A DNA stretch of 64,000 nucleotides from Escherichia coli (GCA_022969815.1 GCA_022969815.1_4535.1); one strand, 5' to 3'. Positions 2,366 to 56,473 are shown, counted from the stretch's first letter. Notes: generated by a model not told the origin, from the letters alone. Translations and numbers: made by a program.

Positions 2366-3166
2366 ATGTCCAATAAAATTAGCCTGAAGAAACGCCAAGA
2401 CACCCTGACCATTTCACTGAAGAAAAAGAAAATCGTGAACGAAGATCAAAAGATCGTTCTGCGTGTTGCAAGTGCACTGGATATCTCCGGTAGCATGTCC
2501 AGCCTGTATCGTAACGGTACTGTAAGTGAGTTTGTTGGTAAGTTGCTTCCGTTTGGTATGCTGTTCGATGATAACGCGCAGATCGATATGTGGGCTTTCA
2601 ACAATAGCTCTCGTGAAATCACTCCAGCAACTGCTGATGTGTATGATGATTACGTTGGTAAATGCATTAATGGTCGTGTAACAGTCCAGGGTGGCACAAG
2701 CTATGCACCTGTTATGCAGGATATTTACGATTCCTACTTCGGTAGCACCACTAAATATGAAACTGTAGAAACTCCTGTAACCAAAGAAGTTCCTAAGAAA
2801 GGTTTCTTCAACCGTTTACTGGGTAAAACTGAAACTGTAGAAGCTGTTGTAGAAAAAACTGTAGCCGTTGCTGTGCCTGGTGTAGACGTTACTCCGGCAG
2901 TTGTGTTCTTCCAGACAGATGGTGAGAACGATGATCCGAGCCGTGTACTCTCCGTACTGGAAAAGAACAAGGGTAAACCTATCTACTGGTTCATGGTGGG
3001 TGTTGGTAGTGCTCGTTTCTCTTTCCTGAAAGATTTGGCTGAAGCTTACGACAACGTAGCATTCATTGGTCTGAACGATCTTTCCTTGACAGACGAGCAG
3101 CTTTACGATAAACTCTTGTCTGAAGAGTTCGGTGAGTGGGTCGAAAAGGTTGGTGCTAAGAAATGA
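2366..3166 (+). CDS. vWA-domain protein with TerD-like N-terminal tag (TerY-like)
   Basis: N-terminus MSNKISLKK...ISLKK nearly identical to the TerD ORF at 3683; DxSxS MIDAS-like motif (DISGSMSS) typical of von Willebrand A domains. Confidence 0.6.
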   Translation: MSNKISLKKRQDTLTISLKKKKIVNEDQKIVLRVASALDISGSMSSLYRNGTVSEFVGKLLPFGMLFDDNAQIDMWAFNNSSREITPATADVYDDYVGKCINGRVTVQGGTSYAPVMQDIYDSYFGSTTKYETVETPVTKEVPKKGFFNRLLGKTETVEAVVEKTVAVAVPGVDVTPAVVFFQTDGENDDPSRVLSVLEKNKGKPIYWFMVGVGSARFSFLKDLAEAYDNVAFIGLNDLSLTDEQLYDKLLSEEFGEWVEKVGAKK

Positions 3167-3405
3167 TCGACACGCTGATCTCTCAAACGGTGTTACAAGT
3201 GATGCGCGAGAGAGAAGCTTTCATCATGAAGGGTCTTAAAGATTACTTTGGGACTCTTTCTTTGGAAGAACTCAAGCTACGCGTTGAAATCCATCAGTAT
3301 CCTTTTTATGAAGAATGGATTGACAAAGCAAATAAAGCTGTTATAATGCGTATCAACAAACCAGAAATCACGACAGGAGGACAAGATGTTAAATTTCGCC
3401 ATTAA
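3163..3405 (+). CDS. hypothetical protein
   Basis: ORF overlapping upstream stop. Confidence 0.5.
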   Translation: MIDTLISQTVLQVMREREAFIMKGLKDYFGTLSLEELKLRVEIHQYPFYEEWIDKANKAVIMRINKPEITTGGQDVKFRH

Positions 3406-3667
3406 GAAAGATAGCAAACCAGAGATTCAGACTTGTCGCATTGCAAATCTTACACATCGGGATTTGTTTGTTCTGAAAAGCGCCTACGATGAAGACGGTC
3501 TTGACCCAGAAGCAGTCATCGTTTATATGGTATTGCGGCGAGACGAAGACACCAAGCACCCATATAATGCGGTAGAAATGAATTACAATGCAATGTTGTG
3601 TTCAATACACCATACGGCAGAGTTGGTGCAGGTAGAGTTAACAGTTAACGAAATTAAACTTAAATAA
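3386..3667 (+). CDS. small protein, paralogue B of duplicated cassette
   Basis: Shares N-terminal and internal motifs with 2092..2364; sits immediately upstream of the TerD gene in the same arrangement. Confidence 0.55.
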   Translation: MLNFAIKKDSKPEIQTCRIANLTHRDLFVLKSAYDEDGLDPEAVIVYMVLRRDEDTKHPYNAVEMNYNAMLCSIHHTAELVQVELTVNEIKLK

Positions 3668-3682
3668 TAGAGGAGACATATA

Positions 3683-4285
3683 ATGAGCGATAAAATTTCC
3701 CTGAAAAAAGGTTCCACCGACAAGATTTCCCTGAAGAAAGTTGCTCCGGCACTGAAAGAACTGCGTCTGGAGTTCTCCTGGAAATCAAACTCTAAACTGG
3801 ATCTGGATGTAAGCGCACTGGTATGCCGACACAACGCTTCTGGCAACCCTGAAATGCTGTCTGCACGTCATCTGGTTTGTTATGCTAACAAGTTTGATCC
3901 AGAACGTTCTGTATTCGCGGGTGATGATGTTCGTGACGGTACTGGTCAAATGGAACAGATCGATGTAACCTTGGCTAAGATCTCCGATAAAGCCGAAGAG
4001 ATTGCTTTTGTCCTGACTATTGATGATGAAACGGGTCAGAAACGTCTGGGTCACGCTACTGAAGGTATGCTGAAGATTTTCGATTCCGAACGTAACGTAG
4101 AGATCCTGGACTTCGACTTCCTGGCTCCTGAAGTAGCTGGTAACACGATCTGCCACGTAGCTTCCTTGGTTCGTGAAGACGGCGAATGGAAACTGAAAGC
4201 TTACGGTGTTGGTAAAGCAGGTATGGATATCTGTGATGTGGTTATGGCCTTCGGTGGTCAGAAAGAATGGTATGATTGCCCGTAA
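3683..4285 (+). CDS. TerD-family protein (tellurium-resistance / Ca-binding TerD domain)
   Basis: ISLKK repeats at N-terminus, GDDVRDGTGQ Ca-binding-like motif, GEWKLKAYGVG near C-terminus; matches my recollection of bacterial TerD; RBS AGGAGA upstream. Confidence 0.65.
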   Translation: MSDKISLKKGSTDKISLKKVAPALKELRLEFSWKSNSKLDLDVSALVCRHNASGNPEMLSARHLVCYANKFDPERSVFAGDDVRDGTGQMEQIDVTLAKISDKAEEIAFVLTIDDETGQKRLGHATEGMLKIFDSERNVEILDFDFLAPEVAGNTICHVASLVREDGEWKLKAYGVGKAGMDICDVVMAFGGQKEWYDCP

Positions 4286-47132: not shown

Positions 47133-48698
47133 TTAATTCGATAAGTTTGCTGCTGATGGATCAAGAGCCGAAACGCTGGTGGATGTACCTGTACCTGCGG
47201 TCGCCATACCGTCTCCAGAACGTGAAGTTTTATCTGGCATGAATGTCTCCATATATTCTACGAATTTATCCTTGTCAGAAACAATGTCGTCTGGTATACG
47301 ATAATCAAAGCCTAACTTCTCTAAGAACTCATTGATAATTTCCGCTGTAAGTGGAATAGCTCCTGCTGCAACAATCTGTTGGATCGCTTTAGCGTTTACT
47401 TCGATATCAGGATCACCCATTTCACCACTAACAAACTTCGGCATATCTTCATCAGAAAGGAAGATATTGTTTAAGCGAAGTGCTTGTGGAATGAGTTGAG
47501 AGTTAATAGCTTCAACAACAATATCTACATCGCGTTCAATGAAGTGTGAGAGCAGGGTCTGTTTATTATCGGACAATGCAAAACTGCCAGCGTCCCCGTC
47601 ACCCATTATCAATACACCCGCACCAAAACGGTTGTAAATATCCAGTTTACGTTGTTTGATCAGTTCTTGCGTATCAAACTGTTTACCAGCCCCTTCTACG
47701 CCCTGGAACACCAGATCGTACTGACGCATAACAGTTCCTTCATAAACGTCTGAAGGTAATACCATGTATGCTTGTTCACCAGAGTGCAGGTTGGCAATAT
47801 TTGCCTGGAGAACTCGTAAGGACTGTGCTTCATCTCCAGCAGGATCAAGAGATGCGCGGTTAAGAATATCGCTCGGTACTTTCAGAACAGGCATACCGCC
47901 CAAATCTTTAGAAACCCCGATAACTTCGAATTCTTGAATTAAAGATTTTTCACGCCAACTACGATAAACAGCCAACAGAGGTGACACACCCAAAGGATTG
48001 TTTTCTGTGATATTGCTACCCACAAAAATAACCTTGTTCATAGGGATTTGACGTACACCCAGTTGCAACTTACTGTTACCTGGAGCCAACATGGTATTAG
48101 TGATGTTCTGGTTTACCGAAATAACGGTGCGACCATCATCAGAATAGGTGAAAGGGTTTGCCATATCCAAAGTATCTTGCGGTCGGAAAGCAAGTTTAGT
48201 GAGGCGGTAATAGCCATAGTATGGACTCTTCGGATCTTCGTCAAGTTCAAACACCTTTTCAGCAAATGCAAAACCGAACTGTTTGTAAGTAAGAAGAGAT
48301 CTCACATACTGACGTAATGGTGCTTGCATGTTGCGTAACATATATTCAATAAACTTTGCAGCTTTTCTTGACTTGGCAGAGTTTACGTTGTATTTTATTT
48401 TAAAGTCGAAAAATGCTCTGTCTACGAAAATGTATGTTGCGTCAAGAGCGGTAGCAACATCTGGGTCTTCACCCATTTCCTTATAAGTACGGATGTTTTC
48501 AGGAAAGCGTGTTTCATACGGTTGCATGAAGTTAGTGAATGCTTTGATTGAGTTCAACCCAATCGTCCCGATTTCAGGAGAGAGAAGTAAACTCTTTTCT
48601 TTCTCTGCCTGTTTTGACGGAGAGAGAGCAGCTTTGTTCACTGCACTTTGTTTCCAGTAATCCGACTTCTTAGTGTACTGTCTTTTTTCTGTTGACAC
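47133..48698 (-). CDS. portal protein
   Basis: 521 aa, directly downstream of the large terminase. Confidence 0.65.
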   Translation of the reverse strand: MSTEKRQYTKKSDYWKQSAVNKAALSPSKQAEKEKSLLLSPEIGTIGLNSIKAFTNFMQPYETRFPENIRTYKEMGEDPDVATALDATYIFVDRAFFDFKIKYNVNSAKSRKAAKFIEYMLRNMQAPLRQYVRSLLTYKQFGFAFAEKVFELDEDPKSPYYGYYRLTKLAFRPQDTLDMANPFTYSDDGRTVISVNQNITNTMLAPGNSKLQLGVRQIPMNKVIFVGSNITENNPLGVSPLLAVYRSWREKSLIQEFEVIGVSKDLGGMPVLKVPSDILNRASLDPAGDEAQSLRVLQANIANLHSGEQAYMVLPSDVYEGTVMRQYDLVFQGVEGAGKQFDTQELIKQRKLDIYNRFGAGVLIMGDGDAGSFALSDNKQTLLSHFIERDVDIVVEAINSQLIPQALRLNNIFLSDEDMPKFVSGEMGDPDIEVNAKAIQQIVAAGAIPLTAEIINEFLEKLGFDYRIPDDIVSDKDKFVEYMETFMPDKTSRSGDGMATAGTGTSTSVSALDPSAANLSN

Positions 48699-48801: not shown

Positions 48802-50880
48802 TTATCTTCGACGAGGGGCACTTACCGTAGTGAAATGCCTTGAGTTCATGTTACTGTACCCAGTAGGTGCATTTGTTGTTGCAGGTATCGCTACAGCCTT
48901 GTGTGCCGTCTCTTTCGCCAGAGTGTTGAAGCAAGATGCTGCGGCATCTGGAAGGTCATCTTTAAGCATTGCTGTAGATCGTTCACCGTTAAAAGATTCC
49001 AATTCTTTATAAAAGTGATTCAAAGTTTCAATGTTAGGAAATGAATCTTCCACGATATAAACAAAGCCGTTCTGACAGGCACTACTGAATGGCATGAAAC
49101 GTTGGAGTTTCTTTTTGTTACCTGGCATTGCGTCCGGTTTAACAACGAAGCCTTCAACAATAAGTTTTTTAGCCGATTCCGTGTATTCGATGAGTCCAGC
49201 ACCAGACGGGTCTTTTGGAAGAACGATCTGAACATCTGGTCCATCAATCTTAGCTTGTTGGAGGATCAGGTTATCCCTGTCACCAGGTAAGCGTCGGAAT
49301 CTTCCGAAAACTTTACTCTTCTCGTCTATAGCATCGTAATCATAATCCCCGAAGATATAAATGTTCCCGTTTAGGTCTTTACCCATCTTAACAGATGCCG
49401 TATAGTCGGGATAACGATAACGTTCACTTGGAACGGATACAGCTTTATCCCATGCACGCATATACTTCATGTTGTTAGGAACATCTTTGTATTCTATCTT
49501 GTGAAGCCATTCACGTTGGAAGAATGATTCCTCTTGAATACGGGCAAACCAACAACCGTCCAGAAGCTGTGCTCGCTTGATCGCTGTCTGCGATTTAAGA
49601 GAAGCCAGGTATTTCGGGTTAAGGCGAATCAGTTCAGGGTTATCAAAGATCGTACCACCGATAAACACAAACGTTTGAGGCTCGATCGTAACAACCTCAC
49701 CAGTGTTTGGGTTCTCCATGAAACAGTTTTCAGGATACTTCTCTTTAAGTTCCTCTGCTGTGTCGGCAAATACAGGCTCATCATTTACAATAATGAAGTA
49801 GGTTTGTTTACCACACATATCTTCACGAGGATAACCACCTTCGTCAAGATAAGGTAACACCCAGTTCAGTACCCAGCTATCCGCATCGGGGTTACAGGTA
49901 CAGAGCATGAAAGATGTTTCTGACTCGGAACGCATACGACCGAGAAGATAAAGCATCTCATACTGGGTGAAATGGGTGAGTTCGTCAAAACCAACCATAC
50001 TGTACTGTGTACCCTGATGGTTAGTCTCGGCTGTAACGTTATCATTTTCCAGATGGTCAAACTTCAAAGTACCGCCGTTAGTGGCCTCGAAGATAATGTC
50101 CATCGTACTTTCTTTTACGTGCGGTTGTAAAGGCAGGTACAGACGTTTAGCTTCTGTAAACAAACCACCTGGCTTACGGTGTGCAGTGGTGTTCTTACGG
50201 AATAAGATACCACCGAACAAAGGATCTTTATAGGCAAACTTAAGAGCTTTTAGCAGTAGCAGACGAGACTTGCCGCTATTGCCAGTAACGAAGCAGTGAT
50301 TGCCCCGTCTAAGGACAATATAGCTACTTGGAGTTTCAAAGCAATATTTTTTATCATCGGATGTAATAACCTCGTGTATTTTTAAATAAGTGTTTTGTTT
50401 GCCTGGGATGTTAAACGGAACGCGCTTACCAAAAGGATCTTCAATGTATCCTTTCAGTGGTGCTCCTGCTTGTTGCAGAGCAATAAGATCTCCCACAGCA
50501 ATCTCAAAATGTTTTTTGGATTTCTTTTTCTTGTAAAAGACGAAACGATGTTCCATACTCAATTCTTGGAACACTCCTGCACCGTTAGTGATTCGGTACA
50601 AGTTATCATCTTTCATATCATATTCTACGAAGTAAGGCGTGACCAATTCTAAGCGTTTTCTCTTAGGATTATACTGATAGATATCTTCTCCGCTGTATTG
50701 GCTTATTTGTTTCCAGCCGTCGCGGGTAAGATACTCTGTTTCAGCAGATACACAACCTGCGGCACCACCATAAATCATAACTTCCGGCATTAGATCCATT
50801 GCCAGCGTCTGTTTACCTGGTTGAGCTTTTACTTCGATATCAGCGCCAGCTAAACTGCCAGCCGCTTTTTTCTTAGCCAC
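48802..50880 (-). CDS. terminase large subunit, containing an in-frame mini-intein in the Walker A motif
   Basis: 692-aa precursor; ...MIYGGAAG / C...159 aa.../ SGKSRLLLLKA, so excision would give GGAAGSGKS; C-terminal nuclease-like region. Confidence 0.7.
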   Translation of the reverse strand: MAKKKAAGSLAGADIEVKAQPGKQTLAMDLMPEVMIYGGAAGCVSAETEYLTRDGWKQISQYSGEDIYQYNPKRKRLELVTPYFVEYDMKDDNLYRITNGAGVFQELSMEHRFVFYKKKKSKKHFEIAVGDLIALQQAGAPLKGYIEDPFGKRVPFNIPGKQNTYLKIHEVITSDDKKYCFETPSSYIVLRRGNHCFVTGNSGKSRLLLLKALKFAYKDPLFGGILFRKNTTAHRKPGGLFTEAKRLYLPLQPHVKESTMDIIFEATNGGTLKFDHLENDNVTAETNHQGTQYSMVGFDELTHFTQYEMLYLLGRMRSESETSFMLCTCNPDADSWVLNWVLPYLDEGGYPREDMCGKQTYFIIVNDEPVFADTAEELKEKYPENCFMENPNTGEVVTIEPQTFVFIGGTIFDNPELIRLNPKYLASLKSQTAIKRAQLLDGCWFARIQEESFFQREWLHKIEYKDVPNNMKYMRAWDKAVSVPSERYRYPDYTASVKMGKDLNGNIYIFGDYDYDAIDEKSKVFGRFRRLPGDRDNLILQQAKIDGPDVQIVLPKDPSGAGLIEYTESAKKLIVEGFVVKPDAMPGNKKKLQRFMPFSSACQNGFVYIVEDSFPNIETLNHFYKELESFNGERSTAMLKDDLPDAAASCFNTLAKETAHKAVAIPATTNAPTGYSNMNSRHFTTVSAPRRR
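50278..50754 (-). other. mini-intein (Hint domain, no endonuclease domain) within the terminase; about 159 aa, boundaries inferred
   Basis: Starts with Cys (CVSAETEYLTRDGW), ends ...NHCFVTGN followed by Ser; excision restores a canonical P-loop. Confidence 0.5.
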
Positions 50881-50889
50881 TTCTCCTCC

Positions 50890-51231
50890 TTACTTACTGA
50901 TAATCCCTTTCTCTTGCAGAGCCTTAATGTAGTTTTGTAAACCGATCACTTTGTTTCGGTCTTGACTCCAGAGAACATTATTTGTGGTCCCGTTATCAAC
51001 TACTTCAGAACGAGAAACACCTTTAGCAATTTGTTGATCTGTGTACGGTACAGGTTCACTTACACCTTCCATTAAAGAAGAGTCTGGTCCTCTGACTTCC
51101 TGCACTGCTACAGCTTTACATTCGTCAATTAGAATCGGGGAGGCTTTTGTTGAGGATGTGCAACCCGTCATCATTAGGGCCGAAGCAAGACATAGACCCA
51201 GTAGTAGTTTTTGCATAATTTGTTTTCTCAT
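50890..51231 (-). CDS. outer-membrane lipoprotein, o-spanin candidate (Rz1-like)
   Basis: Signal peptide with lipobox-like LMMTGC; start lies inside the upstream gene in a different frame. Confidence 0.4.
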   Translation of the reverse strand: MRKQIMQKLLLGLCLASALMMTGCTSSTKASPILIDECKAVAVQEVRGPDSSLMEGVSEPVPYTDQQIAKGVSRSEVVDNGTTNNVLWSQDRNKVIGLQNYIKALQEKGIISK

Positions 51232-51532
51232 CGTTTACCTTCTTCTCCTTGTTTGCTAAATCTTTTTTCAATTTAGCATTCTTTTCGGAGAGGGAAGCTA
51301 TTTGGTTGTTAAGTGCCAGACGTTCATCATCGGCTTTCTTTTGAAGAACATCGAAGTCTTGTTTAGCTTTTGCTTGTTGTTGCTGATAGATAGTTACTTG
51401 ATGTTGTTCTCCTGCTGCGTAACCATTATCATACAGAGCCTTTCCGCCGAAGTACAAACCAGCTAAAAGTGCAACTAACAGAAGAATAACGTAAAACCAC
51501 TTACTCTTCAGAATCATTGTTATCAGTGTCAT
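51125..51532 (-). CDS. i-spanin candidate (Rz-like): N-terminal transmembrane segment plus coiled coil
   Basis: FYVILLLVALLAGLYFGG transmembrane segment then coiled coil; 107-nt overlap with the lipoprotein ORF. Confidence 0.45.
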   Translation of the reverse strand: MTLITMILKSKWFYVILLLVALLAGLYFGGKALYDNGYAAGEQHQVTIYQQQQAKAKQDFDVLQKKADDERLALNNQIASLSEKNAKLKKDLANKEKKVNDEKTNYAKTTTGSMSCFGPNDDGLHILNKSLPDSN

Positions 51533-53185: not shown

Positions 53186-53455
53186 TTAAGGTCGGTTAAT
53201 TACCTTAACAGTTTGTCCTTTGTCGTTCATCAGATAGGCTGATTCAGTTTTGTGAACAAAGATAACACGTTCACCTGCGATAACAGAGGCTACCACGCCA
53301 TCTGGTCGATCATAACCTTCCCAATGATACTGAATAATTACGTCATCCTCTAAGCAGTAAAAGAATTCTTCTTCATTTACATTGAAAGGGACGGTATTGT
53401 AAATCTTTACTTCATCTTCTTTAGAAAATTTACGGATTGTTTTTAACGTATACAT
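53186..53455 (-). CDS. hypothetical protein (start moved so as not to overlap tRNA genes)
   Basis: Track ORF 53186..53683 runs through two tRNA genes; internal ATG at plus 53455 has an AGGA RBS. Confidence 0.45.
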   Translation of the reverse strand: MYTLKTIRKFSKEDEVKIYNTVPFNVNEEEFFYCLEDDVIIQYHWEGYDRPDGVVASVIAGERVIFVHKTESAYLMNDKGQTVKVINRP

Positions 53456-53575
53456 GATTTGTCCTATTAAGTATTTAGTGTTTAGTGGGTTGTGCGTTTT
53501 AGGAGTCGCACCCCTCCCTCTTAGAAGGAACCAGGCAAGGTCTTCAAAGATACCGCTGGCGCGATATTTGGAGGC

Positions 53576-53654
53576 GGGAATCGGATTCGAACCGATGATC
53601 TCCAGCATATGAAACTGGCGAGGACGACCAAACTCCTCTATCCCGCTATTAGGT
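53576..53654 (-). tRNA. tRNA-Met (anticodon CAU), CCA encoded; A1/C72 mismatch suggests initiator or Ile2 identity
   Basis: Hand-folded cloverleaf: D-stem GAGG/CCTC, anticodon stem CCAGT/GCTGG, loop TTCATAT, T-arm ATCGG-TTCGAAT-CCGAT. Confidence 0.7.
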
Positions 53655-53660
53655 GTCCCG

Positions 53661-53729
53661 TGCTGGATTCGAACCAGCATCACAATAGTTGTGGATCTCT
53701 TATCCTGTAAGTCTAACGGGAAACTGGTT
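53661..53729 (-). tRNA. tRNA-like element, non-canonical (possible pseudo-tRNA)
   Basis: Intact T-arm (GCTGG-TTCGAAT-CCAGC) and 6/7 acceptor pairing, but I could not fold a canonical D-arm or a 5-7-5 anticodon arm; no encoded CCA. Confidence 0.35.
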
Positions 53730-53731
53730 GT

Positions 53732-53805
53732 TTCGACAAGAATCGAACTTGTATCTCACGATTATCAGTCGTGGGTTCTACCATTGAACTACGAAACATT
53801 TAATT
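53732..53805 (-). tRNA. tRNA-Ile (anticodon GAU), CCA encoded
   Basis: Acceptor TGTTTCG/CGAAACA, D-arm GTTC-AATGGTA-GAAC, anticodon arm CACGA-CTGATAA-TCGTG, T-loop TTCGATT. Confidence 0.75.
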
Positions 53806-53821
53806 GGTAGGAATTGCAGGA

Positions 53822-54163
53822 TTACCAAGTAACATCATGCCCTGAATGGAAAGCGCAATGACAGTTCTTACAGAGTAAGACGCAATTCTCTATCTCTTTG
53901 TCTATTCTTGCAAGTGACCAGCCACGCATAGATCCGTAGTTCTTATCTTTTATTGCTGGGTCAAGATGGTGAATATCCAAAGATTCTTCATACTGATTAA
54001 ATCCGCAAGCGGCGCACTTACCTCCTAACTTATCACGAGCATATTTTTTCTTATGTTGTCCAAGTTCTGTCGTATACTTATTATGACAGGCTCCACAAAT
54101 AGATTTCTTATGTCCGTAGAATTTCGTAGGATCTTCTTCGCCACAATGACTGCATTTACACAT
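53822..54163 (-). CDS. HNH homing endonuclease inserted in the tRNA cluster
   Basis: Cys-rich with HHLDP ... N ... LLCKNCH (HNH-type motif); sits between tRNA genes. Confidence 0.65.
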   Translation of the reverse strand: MCKCSHCGEEDPTKFYGHKKSICGACHNKYTTELGQHKKKYARDKLGGKCAACGFNQYEESLDIHHLDPAIKDKNYGSMRGWSLARIDKEIENCVLLCKNCHCAFHSGHDVTW

Positions 54164-54184
54164 ACAAAAAATCTCTTTACAAAT

Positions 54185-54260
54185 TGGTCAGCCTAAGAAG
54201 ACTTGAACTTCTAACCTCACCGCCCCAAACGGCGCACTCTTCCAATTGAGCTATAGGCTG
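54185..54260 (-). tRNA. tRNA-Pro (anticodon UGG), CCA encoded
   Basis: Acceptor CAGCCTA/TAGGCTG, anticodon arm CGCCG-TTTGGGG-CGGTG, T-loop TTCAAGT. Confidence 0.75.
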
Positions 54261-54460
54261 TTAATAAAAAATCTCACGTCTTATACAAGCTAACCTTTTG
54301 CCTGATGCATGAAATTTAAATACATTCTAAAGGTACACCGTAAAAGATTGTCGGGGCGATACTTCAAAAACATACCGATCCGTAGATCGATAATCAGACA
54401 AACTTCGACGGCTCCTCGTTTTTAACTTCACACTTAAGGTAGTGACTCACCTTTGTTATA

Positions 54461-54536
54461 TGGCTGGTCTGTCTGGATTTGAACCAAACCTACGACAGTC
54501 AAAGTGTCGTGTGCTACCGGACTACAATACAAACCA
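54461..54536 (-). tRNA. tRNA-Gln (anticodon UUG), CCA encoded
   Basis: Acceptor TGGTTTG/CAGACCA, anticodon arm CGACA-CTTTGAC-TGTCG, T-loop TTCAAAT; D-stem looks to be 3 bp. Confidence 0.65.
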
Positions 54537-54626
54537 TTTAATGAAGGGCAACCAGAAGAGGTGTGAGAGAAGGAGAAAACCATGAGTAAAAGAGAAAGTT
54601 TTCTGGCAACCCTTTATTAAATAATT

Positions 54627-54700
54627 TGGAGCGTTCTACGAGTTTCGAACTCGTGCCGCCGACTTGGAAGGACGGAATGCTACCGCTACACCAAGAACGC
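54627..54700 (-). tRNA. tRNA-Gly (anticodon UCC), CCA encoded
   Basis: Acceptor GCGTTCT/AGAACGC, anticodon loop CTTCCAA, T-loop TTCGAAA; one U-U mismatch in the anticodon stem. Confidence 0.65.
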
Positions 54701-55268
54701 CCTACATCTTTACTATACTACATTTTACTATCAGTTGTCAATAGTTTTATTGGGCGGGACAGTGACGAGTATCCCATTGGGTGACTAACCCTACGTTCGG
54801 TTGTGATTAATCTCCTGGGTGTCGCTTGCAACACTGGAAAACTCTCACGTCGATGGGAGAATCCGCTTCTTCTTTACCCCATCCAACCCTACTCCGGTCA
54901 AGTTTCAGGTGACTCTTTTTGTGATCAACACAATACTAAGAACACTGTCTTTCGAGCAGACCTTGTGCACAGGATACGACGATCAATCACAGTGCTCTTA
55001 ATGTTGTGCCACAATAATAAGAACATTCAAACGATGACCACTTTTAGTGGAGAGATTTACAAAATGCTCTTAATGTTGTGTTGTGAATACTAACCTCGGA
55101 ACTCATTACCGCGCTTTGGCTCGACCTTATTACAGGTTAGTGAATGTCTTTCGTCCGATTACATTCAATAAATTTGCTTTCTTCACAACGATAAGAACAC
55201 TTAACAGAAGATAGGTCTGATTGCCTCGGATGATTTCTCAGTAGCCTAAATGTTCTTACCTGTTATGT

Positions 55269-55344
55269 TGGTGCTCCAAGTAGGACTCGAACCTACGACC
55301 TCATGCTTACAAGGCAAGTGCTCTACCAACTGAGCTATTGAAGC
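55269..55344 (-). tRNA. tRNA-Thr (anticodon UGU), CCA encoded
   Basis: D-arm GCTC-AGTTGGTA-GAGC, anticodon loop CTTGTAA, T-arm GTAGG-TTCGAGT-CCTAC. Confidence 0.7.
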
Positions 55345-55696
55345 GTATTGCGCCCCTTCAGCCATGCTTGATGTTGACCAGAACACAGTTAAACTGTGGG
55401 AGGAGGAACACCGCAGGGGGCTTCAGTTGGACGACTTACAGGGAGCGACCCTGTTTCTTTTCTGGGACTCGGCAGGATTCGATACCTGCAATTCCAGAAG
55501 CCTCTTGGCAACTGAGGGTTTACCTTAACCCTACAAGTCCATAATTCTTAAATACTTTGGAGCCTTACTGATAAACCGTTAGTTTGTAACATAGCGTATT
55601 TCCATTCTGGGGCACCGCCTGTGAATGTAATTCCAATACAAACTTTCTCAAGATCAAACCAATTATCAAATAACATTACAACCTCCAGTTTGAATT

Positions 55697-55780
55697 TGGT
55701 GTGAGATGATGGATTCGAACCACCGCGCCTTTCAGAAGGGATTTACAGTCCCCCGCAATCGACCACTCTGCCAATCTCAC
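55697..55780 (-). tRNA. tRNA-Tyr (anticodon GUA), long variable arm, CCA encoded
   Basis: Acceptor GTGAGAT/ATCTCAC, anticodon arm GGGGA-CTGTAAA-TCCCT, 12-nt variable arm, T-loop TTCGAAT. Confidence 0.7.
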
Positions 55781-55904
55781 AAAATTGTTTTTAAAGTAGC
55801 CAGTATTCGCGGTACTGACTATGCGGTATCGGAGATGGTGAGAGCCATCTGCCGAAAGTTTACTCTGTTAAAGTAAGAAACAACAAGCTACATTAAAAAC
55901 AACT

Positions 55905-55990
55905 TGGCGGTAGATGTAGGACTCGAACCTACACGCCGTTTCCGACTACAGTTTAGCAAACTGTTGTGGCTACCATTTCACCAATCTACC
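55905..55990 (-). tRNA. tRNA-Ser (anticodon GCU), long variable arm, CCA encoded
   Basis: Acceptor GGTAGAT/ATCTACC, anticodon arm ACAGT-TTGCTAA-ACTGT, 15-nt variable arm, T-loop TTCGAGT. Confidence 0.7.
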
Positions 55991-55996
55991 TAAATT

Positions 55997-56086
55997 TGGA
56001 GGAAGGTAATGGAGTCGAACCATCACCGTATCTCTACAATGGGCCAGGGTTCAAATCTGGTTGCGTACCACTACGCCCTACCTTCC
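55997..56086 (-). tRNA. tRNA-Ser (anticodon UGA), long variable arm, CCA encoded
   Basis: Acceptor GGAAGGT/ACCTTCC, anticodon loop TTTGAAC with A31-C39 mismatch, long variable arm, T-loop TTCGACT. Confidence 0.6.
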
Positions 56087-56321
56087 ATACATTTAATCTA
56101 ACATAAAACGATGTTGATTGTCAACACCTTTTAAAACATTTTATTATGAATGGTGACTCCACCAACCCCCGTTCTCCACGAACGGTACTCTTCGAGCAAT
56201 CTACCCTTGCAATCAAACGTTGTACACCGTTAGCTTACTCATGCATATTTGCCTCATTCTCTGCCAACCATGATCAGTGGTAGGGTTCAAATCACTTGAG
56301 CTAATTCATACTAAAATGTTC

Positions 56322-56396
56322 TGGTGTCTTTACAAGGAATCGAACCTTGACTAAGAGTTTAGAAGACTCCTGTGCTATCCATTACACCATAAAGAC
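56322..56396 (-). tRNA. tRNA-Arg (anticodon UCU), CCA encoded
   Basis: Acceptor GTCTTTA/TAAAGAC, anticodon arm GGAGT-CTTCTAA-ACTCT, T-loop TTCGATT. Confidence 0.75.
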
Positions 56397-56398
56397 GT

Positions 56399-56473
56399 TG
56401 GTGGCCCTGACTGGTTTCGATCCAGTTGCCTATCGGTTATGAGCCGACTGCTCTCCCATTGAGCTACAGGGCC
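56399..56473 (-). tRNA. tRNA-Met or Ile2 (anticodon CAU), CCA encoded; unusual A at T-loop position 54
   Basis: Acceptor GGCCCTG/CAGGGCC, D-arm GCTC-AATGGGA-GAGC, anticodon arm GTCGG-CTCATAA-CCGAT, T-loop ATCGAAA. Confidence 0.65.

What the first reader, a model, noticed from the sequence alone, without database searches (positions are those of the whole stretch)
50278..50754. Mini-intein inserted in the Walker A P-loop of the large terminase
The terminase ORF reads MIYGGAAG, then a 159-aa insert beginning with Cys and ending in Asn, then SGKSRLLLL. Removing the insert recreates a canonical P-loop, GGAAGSGKS. The insert has a block A-like N-terminus (CVSAETEYLTRDGW) and an ...NHCFVTGN end but lacks the usual penultimate His, so it may be a non-canonical or partly degenerate intein. 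Packaging would depend on protein splicing.
Basis: partly seen in the sequence, partly recalled or inferred. Interest (0 to 1): 0.7.

Follow-up and report, generated by a model that had tools for sequence, protein, structure and literature searches.

The report
Unannotated mini-intein in coliphage terminase
The DNA-packaging motor gene of this E. coli phage is interrupted inside its ATP-binding loop by a 159-residue self-splicing protein element (an intein); this is a well-known kind of element, but here it has gone unannotated and it has an unusual catalytic signature.

Summary
ORF 48802..50880 (-) is a Terminase_6-type large terminase. Residues 43-201 (window 50278..50754, -) are a 159-aa in-frame insert, Cys1...Gly-Asn159 followed by Ser. 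Removing it gives GGAAG|SGKS.

The intein reading is supported:
- An alignment-based AlphaFold model (pLDDT 94) is a HINT fold. All 50 best PDB matches are inteins, BIL domains or hedgehog domains.
- A 16-member family profile hits the AceL NrdHF intein (PDB 6ZGQ) at E=1.6e-11.
- An intein-free homologue, Vibrio phage K406, reads YGGSAG|SGKS without a break.
- dN/dS of the insert (about 0.04-0.05) equals that of the exteins.

"Partly degenerate" is not supported. The penultimate Gly is a family trait: 159 of 159 related elements end in [TS]GN. In the proven-active AceL NrdHF intein, changing that Gly to His kills splicing.

The insert has both Cys1 (class 1 hallmark) and the block-F Cys plus block-G Thr of class 3 inteins. 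Which cysteine starts the reaction is therefore open.

About 134 Stephanstirmvirinae-like phage records carry it (phi92-like and phAPEC8-like phages). No source examined names it. It is a new member of a known kind, of moderate interest.

The parts
48802..50880 (-). Large terminase (TerL) precursor gene. 692 aa, 78.7 kDa, GTG start.
   Evidence: ORF list. Pfam Terminase_6N 63.1 bits against a cut-off of 22. 98.9% nt identity to Escherichia phage phiWec188/190 TerL. The protein is identical to BDU13189.1 / WP_247177452.1.
50755..50880 (-). N-extein, 42 aa, ending ...MIYGGAAG (first half of Walker A).
   Evidence: The junction aligns with the intein-free K406 TerL.
50278..50754 (-). Mini-intein, 159 aa, 18.6 kDa, HINT fold, no homing endonuclease domain.
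   Evidence: AlphaFold2 with a 16-sequence alignment gives pLDDT 94.3 and pTM 0.87. The Foldseek PDB top 50 are all HINT domains, best 6ZGQ at TM 0.71-0.74. The family profile hits 6ZGQ at E=1.6e-11. dN/dS is 0.036-0.054.
50752..50754 (-). Cys1 (block A:1), candidate initiating nucleophile by the class 1 route.
   Evidence: Invariant in alignment A1 and in 157/159 family elements.
50545..50559 (-). Block B core, S66-M-E-H69-R70 (B:7 Ser, B:10 His, B:11 Arg). F71 follows at B:12.
   Evidence: Aligned to S65/H68/R69/M70 of AceL NrdHF. The roles of those residues were shown by mutagenesis in PMC7891396. H69 is invariant and S66 near-invariant.
50341..50343 (-). Cys138 (block F:4 / C2:4), candidate branch-point nucleophile by the class 3 route.
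   Evidence: Invariant in A1 and present in 158/159 elements. It aligns with the mutated C124A of 6ZGQ; C124 is essential in AceL NrdHF.
50278..50286 (-). Block G end, T157-G158-N159. Asn159 cyclises; penultimate Gly replaces the usual His.
   Evidence: The ending is TGN in 131 and SGN in 28 of 159 elements. It matches T144-G145-N146 of AceL NrdHF.
48802..50277 (-). C-extein, 491 aa plus stop, beginning S(+1)GKSRLLLL (second half of Walker A). Ser+1 is the acyl acceptor.
   Evidence: The +1 residue is S, C or T in 159/159 family elements.

Best explanation
The insert is a functional cis-splicing mini-intein, fixed in the Walker A loop of the large terminase of phi92-like and phAPEC8-like coliphages (Stephanstirmvirinae).

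Proposed course of events:
- TerL is translated as a 78.7-kDa precursor whose ATP-binding loop is split between GGAAG and SGKS.
- The 159-aa HINT domain folds and brings the two junctions together.
- A thioester forms at the Gly42-Cys43 bond, by N-S acyl shift of Cys1 (class 1 route) or by attack of the block-F Cys138 (class 3 route).
- The N-extein is passed to the hydroxyl of Ser+1.
- Asn159 cyclises and releases the 18.6-kDa intein. Arg70 (B:11) probably stands in for the missing penultimate His.
- An O-N shift gives mature 60.2-kDa TerL with an intact GGAAGSGKS loop. Only this form should bind ATP and package DNA.

Shown here: the anatomy, the HINT fold, homology to a proven intein, intein-free alleles and purifying selection. 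Inferred: that splicing occurs, and each chemical step.

The element has no endonuclease domain, so it is no longer mobile by itself and is inherited vertically with the gene. My split on the initiating nucleophile is about 55% Cys1, 35% Cys138 and 10% both or other.
For: - Exact in-frame insert that splits GxxxxGKS.
- Host protein is TerL (Pfam Terminase_6N).
- The AlphaFold2 model has pLDDT 94.3. All 50 best PDB fold matches are inteins, BIL or hedgehog HINT domains.
- A profile of 16 mini members hits the AceL NrdHF intein at E=1.6e-11. S66/H69/R70 and C138 align to its functionally tested S65/H68/R69 and C124. Its C-terminal T144-G145-N146|S, as given in the paper, matches T157-G158-N159|S.
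- An HMMER search of 1.84 billion representatives gives 649 relatives.
- In the best 150 proteins, the 159 elements almost always start with Cys, always end in [TS]GN and are always followed by S, C or T. They sit in unrelated hosts (helicases, clamp loader, RtcB, primase, terminases), 110 of them in P-loops. They come as minis of about 140-190 aa or as 300-350-aa forms with a LAGLIDADG-like middle. This spread of hosts and sizes is typical of a mobile intein family.
- The intein-free homologue K406 has a contiguous loop. Related inteins occupy the same site in PWH3a-P1 and Av-05.
- dN/dS of the intein is 0.036-0.054 against 0.039-0.066 for the exteins.
- About 134 phage records carry the insert, against about 133 close TerL homologues, so it appears to be fixed.
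Against: - No experiment. Splicing is inferred.
- Pfam and NCBIfam models do not recognise the insert itself, and a single-sequence PDB search found nothing. Recognition depends on the family profile and the alignment-based model.
- Synonymous sites are saturated (dS about 1.7-2.8, and not computable for some pairs), so the dN/dS values are rough.
- The penultimate His and the usual block-F Asp are absent. That would look defective were it not for the AceL NrdHF precedent.
Confidence: 0.9

Rival explanations
1. It is a class-3-type intein in spite of its Cys1. Cys138 in block F attacks the N-terminal junction and forms a branched thioester, which is passed to Ser+1. Cys1 is then dispensable for chemistry, or serves another role such as a redox disulfide with Cys138.
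For: - The closest solved and sequence relative is the class 3 AceL NrdHF intein.
- C138 aligns with its essential C124, T157 with T144 and G158 with G145, and both have a non-Trp residue at B:12.
- The block-F Cys is present in 158/159 family elements.
- A few WCT inteins with Ser1 or Cys1 were already known (PMC2807308).
- Class 3 inteins favour P-loops of helicases and terminases.
Against: - Cys1 is kept in 157/159 elements. That is hard to explain if it were unnecessary, because class 3 inteins normally have a non-nucleophile there. Hoffmann et al. define class 3 as having no Cys at position 1.
- Trp at B:12 is absent.
- The canonical class 3 structures (Msm and Mch DnaB1) are not among the profile hits and rank only 17th or lower by fold.
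Confidence: 0.35
2. It is a permanently retained, non-splicing HINT-like domain insertion, or a cleaving-only BIL-like domain. TerL works with the insert in place or as two fragments.
For: - No experimental proof of splicing.
- No homing endonuclease, and the element is apparently fixed across the subfamily, as would be expected for a domesticated domain.
- The insert lacks the penultimate His and the block-F Asp.
Against: - The insertion lies inside GxxxxGK[ST], between the Gly and the Ser that precede GKS, so an unspliced loop could hardly bind phosphate.
- All residues needed for splicing (C1, S66, H69, R70, C138, T157, N159, S+1) are kept, with dN/dS about 0.04.
- A +1 nucleophile is present in 159/159 elements, unlike BIL domains (PMC7664689).
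- A relative with the same residue set splices to completion within minutes.
Confidence: 0.05
3. It is a conditional intein. Splicing, and therefore DNA packaging, is gated by redox state or metal through the two invariant cysteines (and Cys153), tuning the timing of terminase activation.
For: - Two invariant cysteines are predicted to sit at the active site.
- There is a precedent: the class 3 DnaB1 intein in a P-loop is reversibly inhibited by oxidants and zinc (abstracts of PMC6195587 and PMC7360933).
- Long-term retention without an endonuclease.
Against: - Nothing here tests regulation.
- Retention is equally explained by the difficulty of deleting an intein precisely from an essential motif.
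Confidence: 0.15

Closest known systems
AceL NrdHF split intein (PDB 6ZGQ; Hoffmann et al. 2020, PMC7891396)
   Same: It is the best sequence-profile hit (E=1.6e-11) and the best fold match (TM 0.71-0.74). It has the same unusual active-site set: Ser-x-x-His-Arg in block B, Cys at F:4 followed by x-x-x-Pro, no block-F His, and a C-terminal Thr-Gly-Asn followed by Ser. It is of phage-like origin, and it is a small HINT domain without an internal endonuclease.
   Different: AceL NrdHF is naturally split, sits in a ribonucleotide reductase gene, and starts with Ala1, so it must use the block-F Cys (class 3). The element here is contiguous, sits in TerL, and starts with Cys1. Sequence identity is only about 18%.
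Mycobacteriophage TerL inteins (Kelley et al. 2016, PMC5050341) and actinophage TerL inteins (bioRxiv 10.1101/2025.01.02.630785)
   Same: They are inteins in the ATPase domain of phage large terminases, including the Walker A loop. Mini and endonuclease-bearing forms both occur. A penultimate His is often absent in phage inteins; one with penultimate Gly splices, and G-to-H slows it. There are 293 TerL inteins in PhagesDB.
   Different: Those P-loop sites are in Terminase_1 proteins, at or next to GK|T. In mycobacteriophage Terminase_6-like proteins the site is the C-motif. Here the host protein is Terminase_6 of a Gram-negative myovirus, and the site is G|SGKS, three residues upstream. The intein family is also different.
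Canonical class 3 (WCT) inteins, e.g. MP-Be DnaB and Msm/Mch DnaB1
   Same: Cys at F:4 and Thr at G:5. They prefer P-loops of helicases and terminases, and a phage association has been proposed.
   Different: Canonical members have Trp at B:12, a penultimate His and no N-terminal nucleophile. The element here has Phe at B:12, a penultimate Gly and Cys1. There is no profile hit to them and only weak fold ranking.
Related inteins at the same TerL site: Vibrio phage PWH3a-P1 (146 aa) and Escherichia phage Av-05 (241 aa)
   Same: Identical junction YGG(A/S)AG|C...TGN|SGKS and the same family motifs.
   Different: Only 27% identity to the PWH3a-P1 intein, while the exteins are 54% identical. This points to old divergence or separate invasions. 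Av-05 carries a larger middle region.

Membership tests
Intein (HINT-domain protein-splicing element) | In-frame insertion in a conserved host motif, with homologues that lack it and have the motif contiguous | tested here: met
   GGAAG|...|SGKS. K406 TerL reads YGGSAGSGKS without a break. Felixounavirus and other homologues match in one piece.
Intein (HINT-domain protein-splicing element) | HINT fold | tested here: met
   The AlphaFold2 model has pLDDT 94.3. The Foldseek PDB top 50 are all inteins, BIL or hedgehog domains.
Intein (HINT-domain protein-splicing element) | Block A nucleophile (Cys/Ser1), block B [TS]xxH, C-terminal Asn, and Cys/Ser/Thr at +1 | tested here: met
   C1, S66-x-x-H69, N159 and S+1 are present, and they are conserved across 159 family elements.
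Intein (HINT-domain protein-splicing element) | Penultimate His (G:6); usual but not obligatory | tested here: not met
   The residue is Gly158. Gly is invariant in the family and is required in AceL NrdHF, where G145H is inactive. Phage inteins with penultimate Gly splice.
Intein (HINT-domain protein-splicing element) | Protein splicing actually occurs (excision plus extein ligation) | not testable with these tools
   Needs expression and SDS-PAGE or mass spectrometry. Indirect support comes from dN/dS of about 0.04.
Intein (HINT-domain protein-splicing element) | Homing endonuclease domain (present in full-length inteins, absent in mini-inteins) | tested here: not met
   The 159 aa are covered end to end by the HINT model. 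Relatives of 300-350 aa have a LAGLIDADG-like middle, but the Pfam hits are weak and below cut-off. The element is therefore a mini-intein.
Class 1 inteins | N-terminal Cys/Ser/Thr that forms the linear (thio)ester | tested here: inconclusive
   Cys1 is present and is kept in 157/159 elements. Whether it is used cannot be tested here. The usual Asp at F:4 is replaced by Cys.
Class 3 inteins | Cys at block F:4 (C2:4) | tested here: met
   C138 aligns with C124(A) of 6ZGQ and is present in 158/159 elements.
Class 3 inteins | Thr at block G:5 | tested here: met
   T157. The position is Thr in 131 and Ser in 28 of 159 elements.
Class 3 inteins | Trp at block B:12 | tested here: not met
   F71. AceL NrdHF has Met here and is still class 3.
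Class 3 inteins | No Cys/Ser nucleophile at position 1 (the definition used by Hoffmann et al.) | tested here: not met
   Cys1 is present. It should therefore not be filed as class 3 on sequence alone.
Class 3 inteins | Block-F branched thioester intermediate | not testable with these tools
   Needs C1A/C138A/S+1A mutants and thiol-induced cleavage assays.
Bacterial intein-like (BIL) domains | HINT domain without a +1 nucleophile, giving mainly cleavage | tested here: not met
   Ser+1 is present. The +1 residue is S, C or T in 159/159 relatives. The BIL definition is from PMC7664689.
Terminase_6-type large terminase (host protein) | Pfam Terminase_6N above the gathering score, and a Walker A motif | tested here: met
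   63.1 bits against a cut-off of 22. Walker A is intact only after the insert is removed.

The most novel reading that the evidence does not exclude
The intein belongs to a large and, as far as I could find, undescribed family: C[VL]DxDTE...SxxH[RKN]...YCFxVPS...[TS]GN. In this family the class 1 nucleophile (Cys1) and the class 3 nucleophile (block-F Cys) are both nearly invariant. The family may splice through a two-cysteine relay, or be able to use either route. [quoted passage not shown] It would also bear on the proposal that class 3 inteins arose by convergence from a protease (PMC7664689). In the phage, the cysteine pair could act as a redox gate on terminase maturation.
Probability: 0.2. 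Interest if true: 0.65.

Novelty: new member of a known kind. Interest (0 to 1): 0.4.

Why it matters
Phi92-like and phAPEC8-like phages are widely isolated and are being proposed for therapy against pathogenic E. coli and Klebsiella. Their packaging ATPase appears to need a protein-splicing step that no database entry examined here mentions, and one recent paper states that no inteins have been reported in coliphages.

In practice, TerL annotation, recombinant TerL expression and TerL-based phylogenies of these phages should take the 159-aa insert into account.

For intein biochemistry, the element is a compact, cis-splicing, 37 °C-host relative of an unusually clean and fast splicing intein. 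It carries both candidate initiating cysteines, so a handful of point mutants would decide between a class 1 and a class 3 route. It might also be useful as a ligation tool with Gly(-1)/Ser(+1) junctions.

Tried and rejected
- Pfam and NCBIfam scans of the insert alone gave no family. Only 2 of 16 relatives touch TIGR01445 intein_Nterm, weakly.
- A single-sequence PDB search gave only chance hits.
- Single-sequence AlphaFold gave pLDDT 38.6 and was unusable.
- The word-indexed protein search with the insert returned only 5 close fragments.
- A six-frame search of the whole window with the family profile found no second copy.
- Group I intron or other non-coding insert: rejected. The insert is in frame, has no stops and has dN/dS of about 0.04.
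- Decaying intein remnant: rejected for the same reason, and because all catalytic positions are kept.
- I tried to read Tori & Perler 2011 (class 3 inteins with Ser1/Cys1) and the phi92 genome paper. Neither is held. What I say about the former rests on citations in other papers and on memory.
- I could not get model coordinates, so I could not measure Cys1-Cys138-junction distances.

Full report
**1. Observation**

The minus-strand ORF 48802..50880 (692 aa; GTG start after GGAGGAG) reads ...MPEVMIYGGAAG, then CVSAETEYLTRDGW...RRGNHCFVTGN, then SGKSRLLLL.
- Codon by codon, Cys1 is at 50752-50754, Asn159 at 50278-50280 and Ser+1 at 50275-50277.
- Removing the 159 residues gives GGAAGSGKS, a GxxxxGK[ST] Walker A loop.
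- The ORF is a large terminase: Pfam Terminase_6N, 63.1 bits against a cut-off of 22.
- It lies between a Mu-type portal gene (47133..48698) and spanin-like genes.
- The window is a phAPEC8-like E. coli myovirus, 98.9% identical over this gene to phages phiWec188/190.

**2. What it is**

Tools that look at the insert alone do not recognise it.
- Pfam and NCBIfam give no hit.
- A single-sequence PDB search gives only noise.
- Single-sequence AlphaFold is unusable, with pLDDT 38.6.

An exhaustive HMMER search of 1.84 billion representatives found 649 relatives with E ≤ 0.001. I delimited the element in the best 150 proteins, which gave 159 elements:
- 157 begin with Cys, typically C[VL]DxDTE[YF].
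- All end in TGN (131) or SGN (28).
- All are followed by Ser (73), Cys (49) or Thr (37).
- 158 have a Cys in a Y-C-F-x-V-P-S motif about 21 residues before the end.

The host proteins are unrelated to each other: ResIII/DEAD helicases, RecD-like AAA_30, clamp-loader AAA, primase and terminases (Pfam), and RtcB (annotated phage records).
- 110 elements sit at G|[SCT]xK[ST] in P-loops.
- 11 sit at a DIG|CG junction, which I take to be RtcB, matching the RtcB-annotated phage hits.
- 131 are 300-350 aa, with a middle region carrying LAGLIDADG-like motifs. The Pfam LAGLIDADG_3 hits are weak and below cut-off.
- About 16 are minis of 140-190 aa, like this one.

One splicing-type domain in many unrelated host proteins, with and without an endonuclease, is the expected pattern for a mobile intein family.

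A 16-member alignment of the minis (A1) has invariant C1, T6, E7, W14, P40, L65, H69, C138, G158 and N159.
- Its profile hits the AceL NrdHF intein (PDB 6ZGQ) at E=1.6e-11. Weaker hits are other inteins: TFIIB at 0.077 and DnaX at 0.78.
- With the same alignment, AlphaFold2 gives a confident model, pLDDT 94.3 and pTM 0.87.
- All 50 best PDB matches of that model are inteins, BIL domains or hedgehog HINT domains. 6ZGQ is first, with TM 0.71-0.74.

**3. Natural controls**

- Vibrio phage K406 TerL (52% identical to the spliced protein here) reads KVDVMIYGGSAG-SGKSRLLL without a break.
- Its relative PWH3a-P1 (exteins 72.5% identical to K406) carries a 146-aa family member at exactly that junction.
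- Escherichia phage Av-05 (Vequintavirinae) carries a 241-aa member there.
- Felixounaviruses and many other homologues also match across the junction in one piece.

Within Stephanstirmvirinae the insert looks fixed. About 133 records have a TerL at least 80% identical, and 134 records have the insert at at least 60% identity.

Against ESCO5, EmilieFrey and Tr1, dN/dS of the insert is 0.036-0.054, and that of the exteins is 0.039-0.066.
- dS is saturated, so the values are rough.
- They still exclude a decaying remnant.
- All catalytic positions are identical in the six sequences aligned.

**4. Mechanism**

Hoffmann et al. (PMC7891396) showed that AceL NrdHF splices to completion in minutes. 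They also assigned roles to its residues:
- S65 and H68 strain the N-terminal scissile bond.
- R69 partly replaces the missing penultimate His.
- C124 (F:4) is the essential branch nucleophile.
- T144 holds H68.
- G145 cannot be changed to His.
- N146 cyclises, and S+1 accepts the N-extein.

The insert here has S66, H69, R70, C138, P142, T157, G158, N159 and S+1 in register with these (and the motif positions given in the paper).

The lack of a penultimate His is therefore a working family trait, not degeneration. Kelley et al. likewise found penultimate Gly in splicing-competent phage inteins, where Gly-to-His slowed splicing.

The one clear difference from AceL NrdHF is position 1: Cys here and in 157/159 relatives, Ala in AceL NrdHF.
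- Class 3 is defined by a block-F Cys together with no N-terminal nucleophile.
- This element meets the first criterion and the G:5 Thr, but not the second and not the B:12 Trp.
- I therefore do not file it as class 3.
- I rate initiation by Cys1 as somewhat more likely (55%) than by Cys138 (35%).
- Near-invariance of both cysteines suggests that both matter.

All chemical steps are inferred.

**5. Comparison with what is known**

- Inteins in phage large terminases, including the P-loop, are common (Novikova 2016; Kelley 2016). PhagesDB holds 293 TerL inteins.
- The kind is therefore known.
- The differences are as follows.
  - The host protein is a Terminase_6 of an enterobacterial myovirus.
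  - The site is G|SGKS rather than GK|T.
  - The intein family is the AceL NrdHF-like [TS]GN group.
  - The element carries the class 1 Cys1 together with two of the three class 3 marker residues.

**6. Has it been reported?**

- None of the names attached to this protein or its relatives mentions an intein. The window protein is identical to BDU13189.1 / WP_247177452.1. The phi92 gp119 sequence is identical to the BASEL phage JohannJBalmer TerL.
- GenBank features say "terminase large subunit" or "hypothetical protein".
- The BASEL table lists 0 inteins for phage EmilieFrey, although its TerL has the insert.
- Full-text searches found nothing on it. Subscription papers, including the phi92 genome paper, were not available.

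**7. Verdict**

It is a new, unannotated member of a known kind. Interest is moderate, and would be higher if the two-cysteine signature turns out to mark a distinct or intermediate splicing route.

Noticed in passing
window 53822..54163 (-): A 113-aa ORF with HNH endonuclease domains (Pfam HNH E=3.6e-5, HNH_2 E=4.3e-5) sits between tRNA-Ile (53725-53798) and tRNA-Pro (54185-54260). In phage ESCO5 these two tRNA genes are only 6 nt apart (L006 135/142). This looks like a free-standing homing endonuclease inserted into the tRNA array.
   Followed up: partly
window 53569..56473 (-): An array of 11 tRNA genes (Met, Ile, Pro, Gln, Gly, Thr, Tyr, Ser x2, Arg, Met) lies upstream of the lysis and packaging genes. 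The listed ORF 53186..53683 overlaps tRNA-Met and is probably spurious.
   Followed up: no
L007 (Klebsiella phage FKP3, PP895363.1) 2738..4143: The TerL gene of this relative keeps the intein. Further downstream it is annotated as two CDS, separated by about 1.4 kb that contains an HNH endonuclease gene. This could be an intron or a homing-endonuclease insertion that splits TerL a second time.
   Followed up: no
L003 (Escherichia phage Av-05, NC_025830.1) 2911..4041: The Av-05 TerL CDS has a 241-aa intein of the same family at the same P-loop site. The CDS is annotated as only 376 aa and ends abruptly (…GRTVCSL*), so the gene is truncated, frameshifted or interrupted in the record.
   Followed up: no
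Phage records matching window 48802..50880: Near-identical TerL genes (81-98% nt) are deposited as Pseudomonas, Campylobacter, Acinetobacter and Serratia phages (e.g. PsgM04F at 98.5%, A150, ABPW7, KKP_3264). For phages of this coliphage subfamily these host labels look doubtful.
   Followed up: no
window 50890..51231 (-) and 51125..51532 (-): Two overlapping ORFs lie directly upstream of TerL. One has a lipoprotein signal (…LMMTGC) and the other an N-terminal transmembrane segment. They match the o-spanin/i-spanin pair annotated at this position in the relatives.
   Followed up: partly
Family of the insert (proteins P0010, P0013, P0016, P0023, P0031, P0041, P0077, P0099, P0107, P0140): Several metagenomic proteins carry two members of this intein family in one host protein. 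In P0041 the two are directly adjacent (…ITGN|CYSEDTEI…). Two elements start with Lys instead of Cys (P0041, P0107); this may be a delimitation error or a variant without an N-terminal nucleophile.
   Followed up: no
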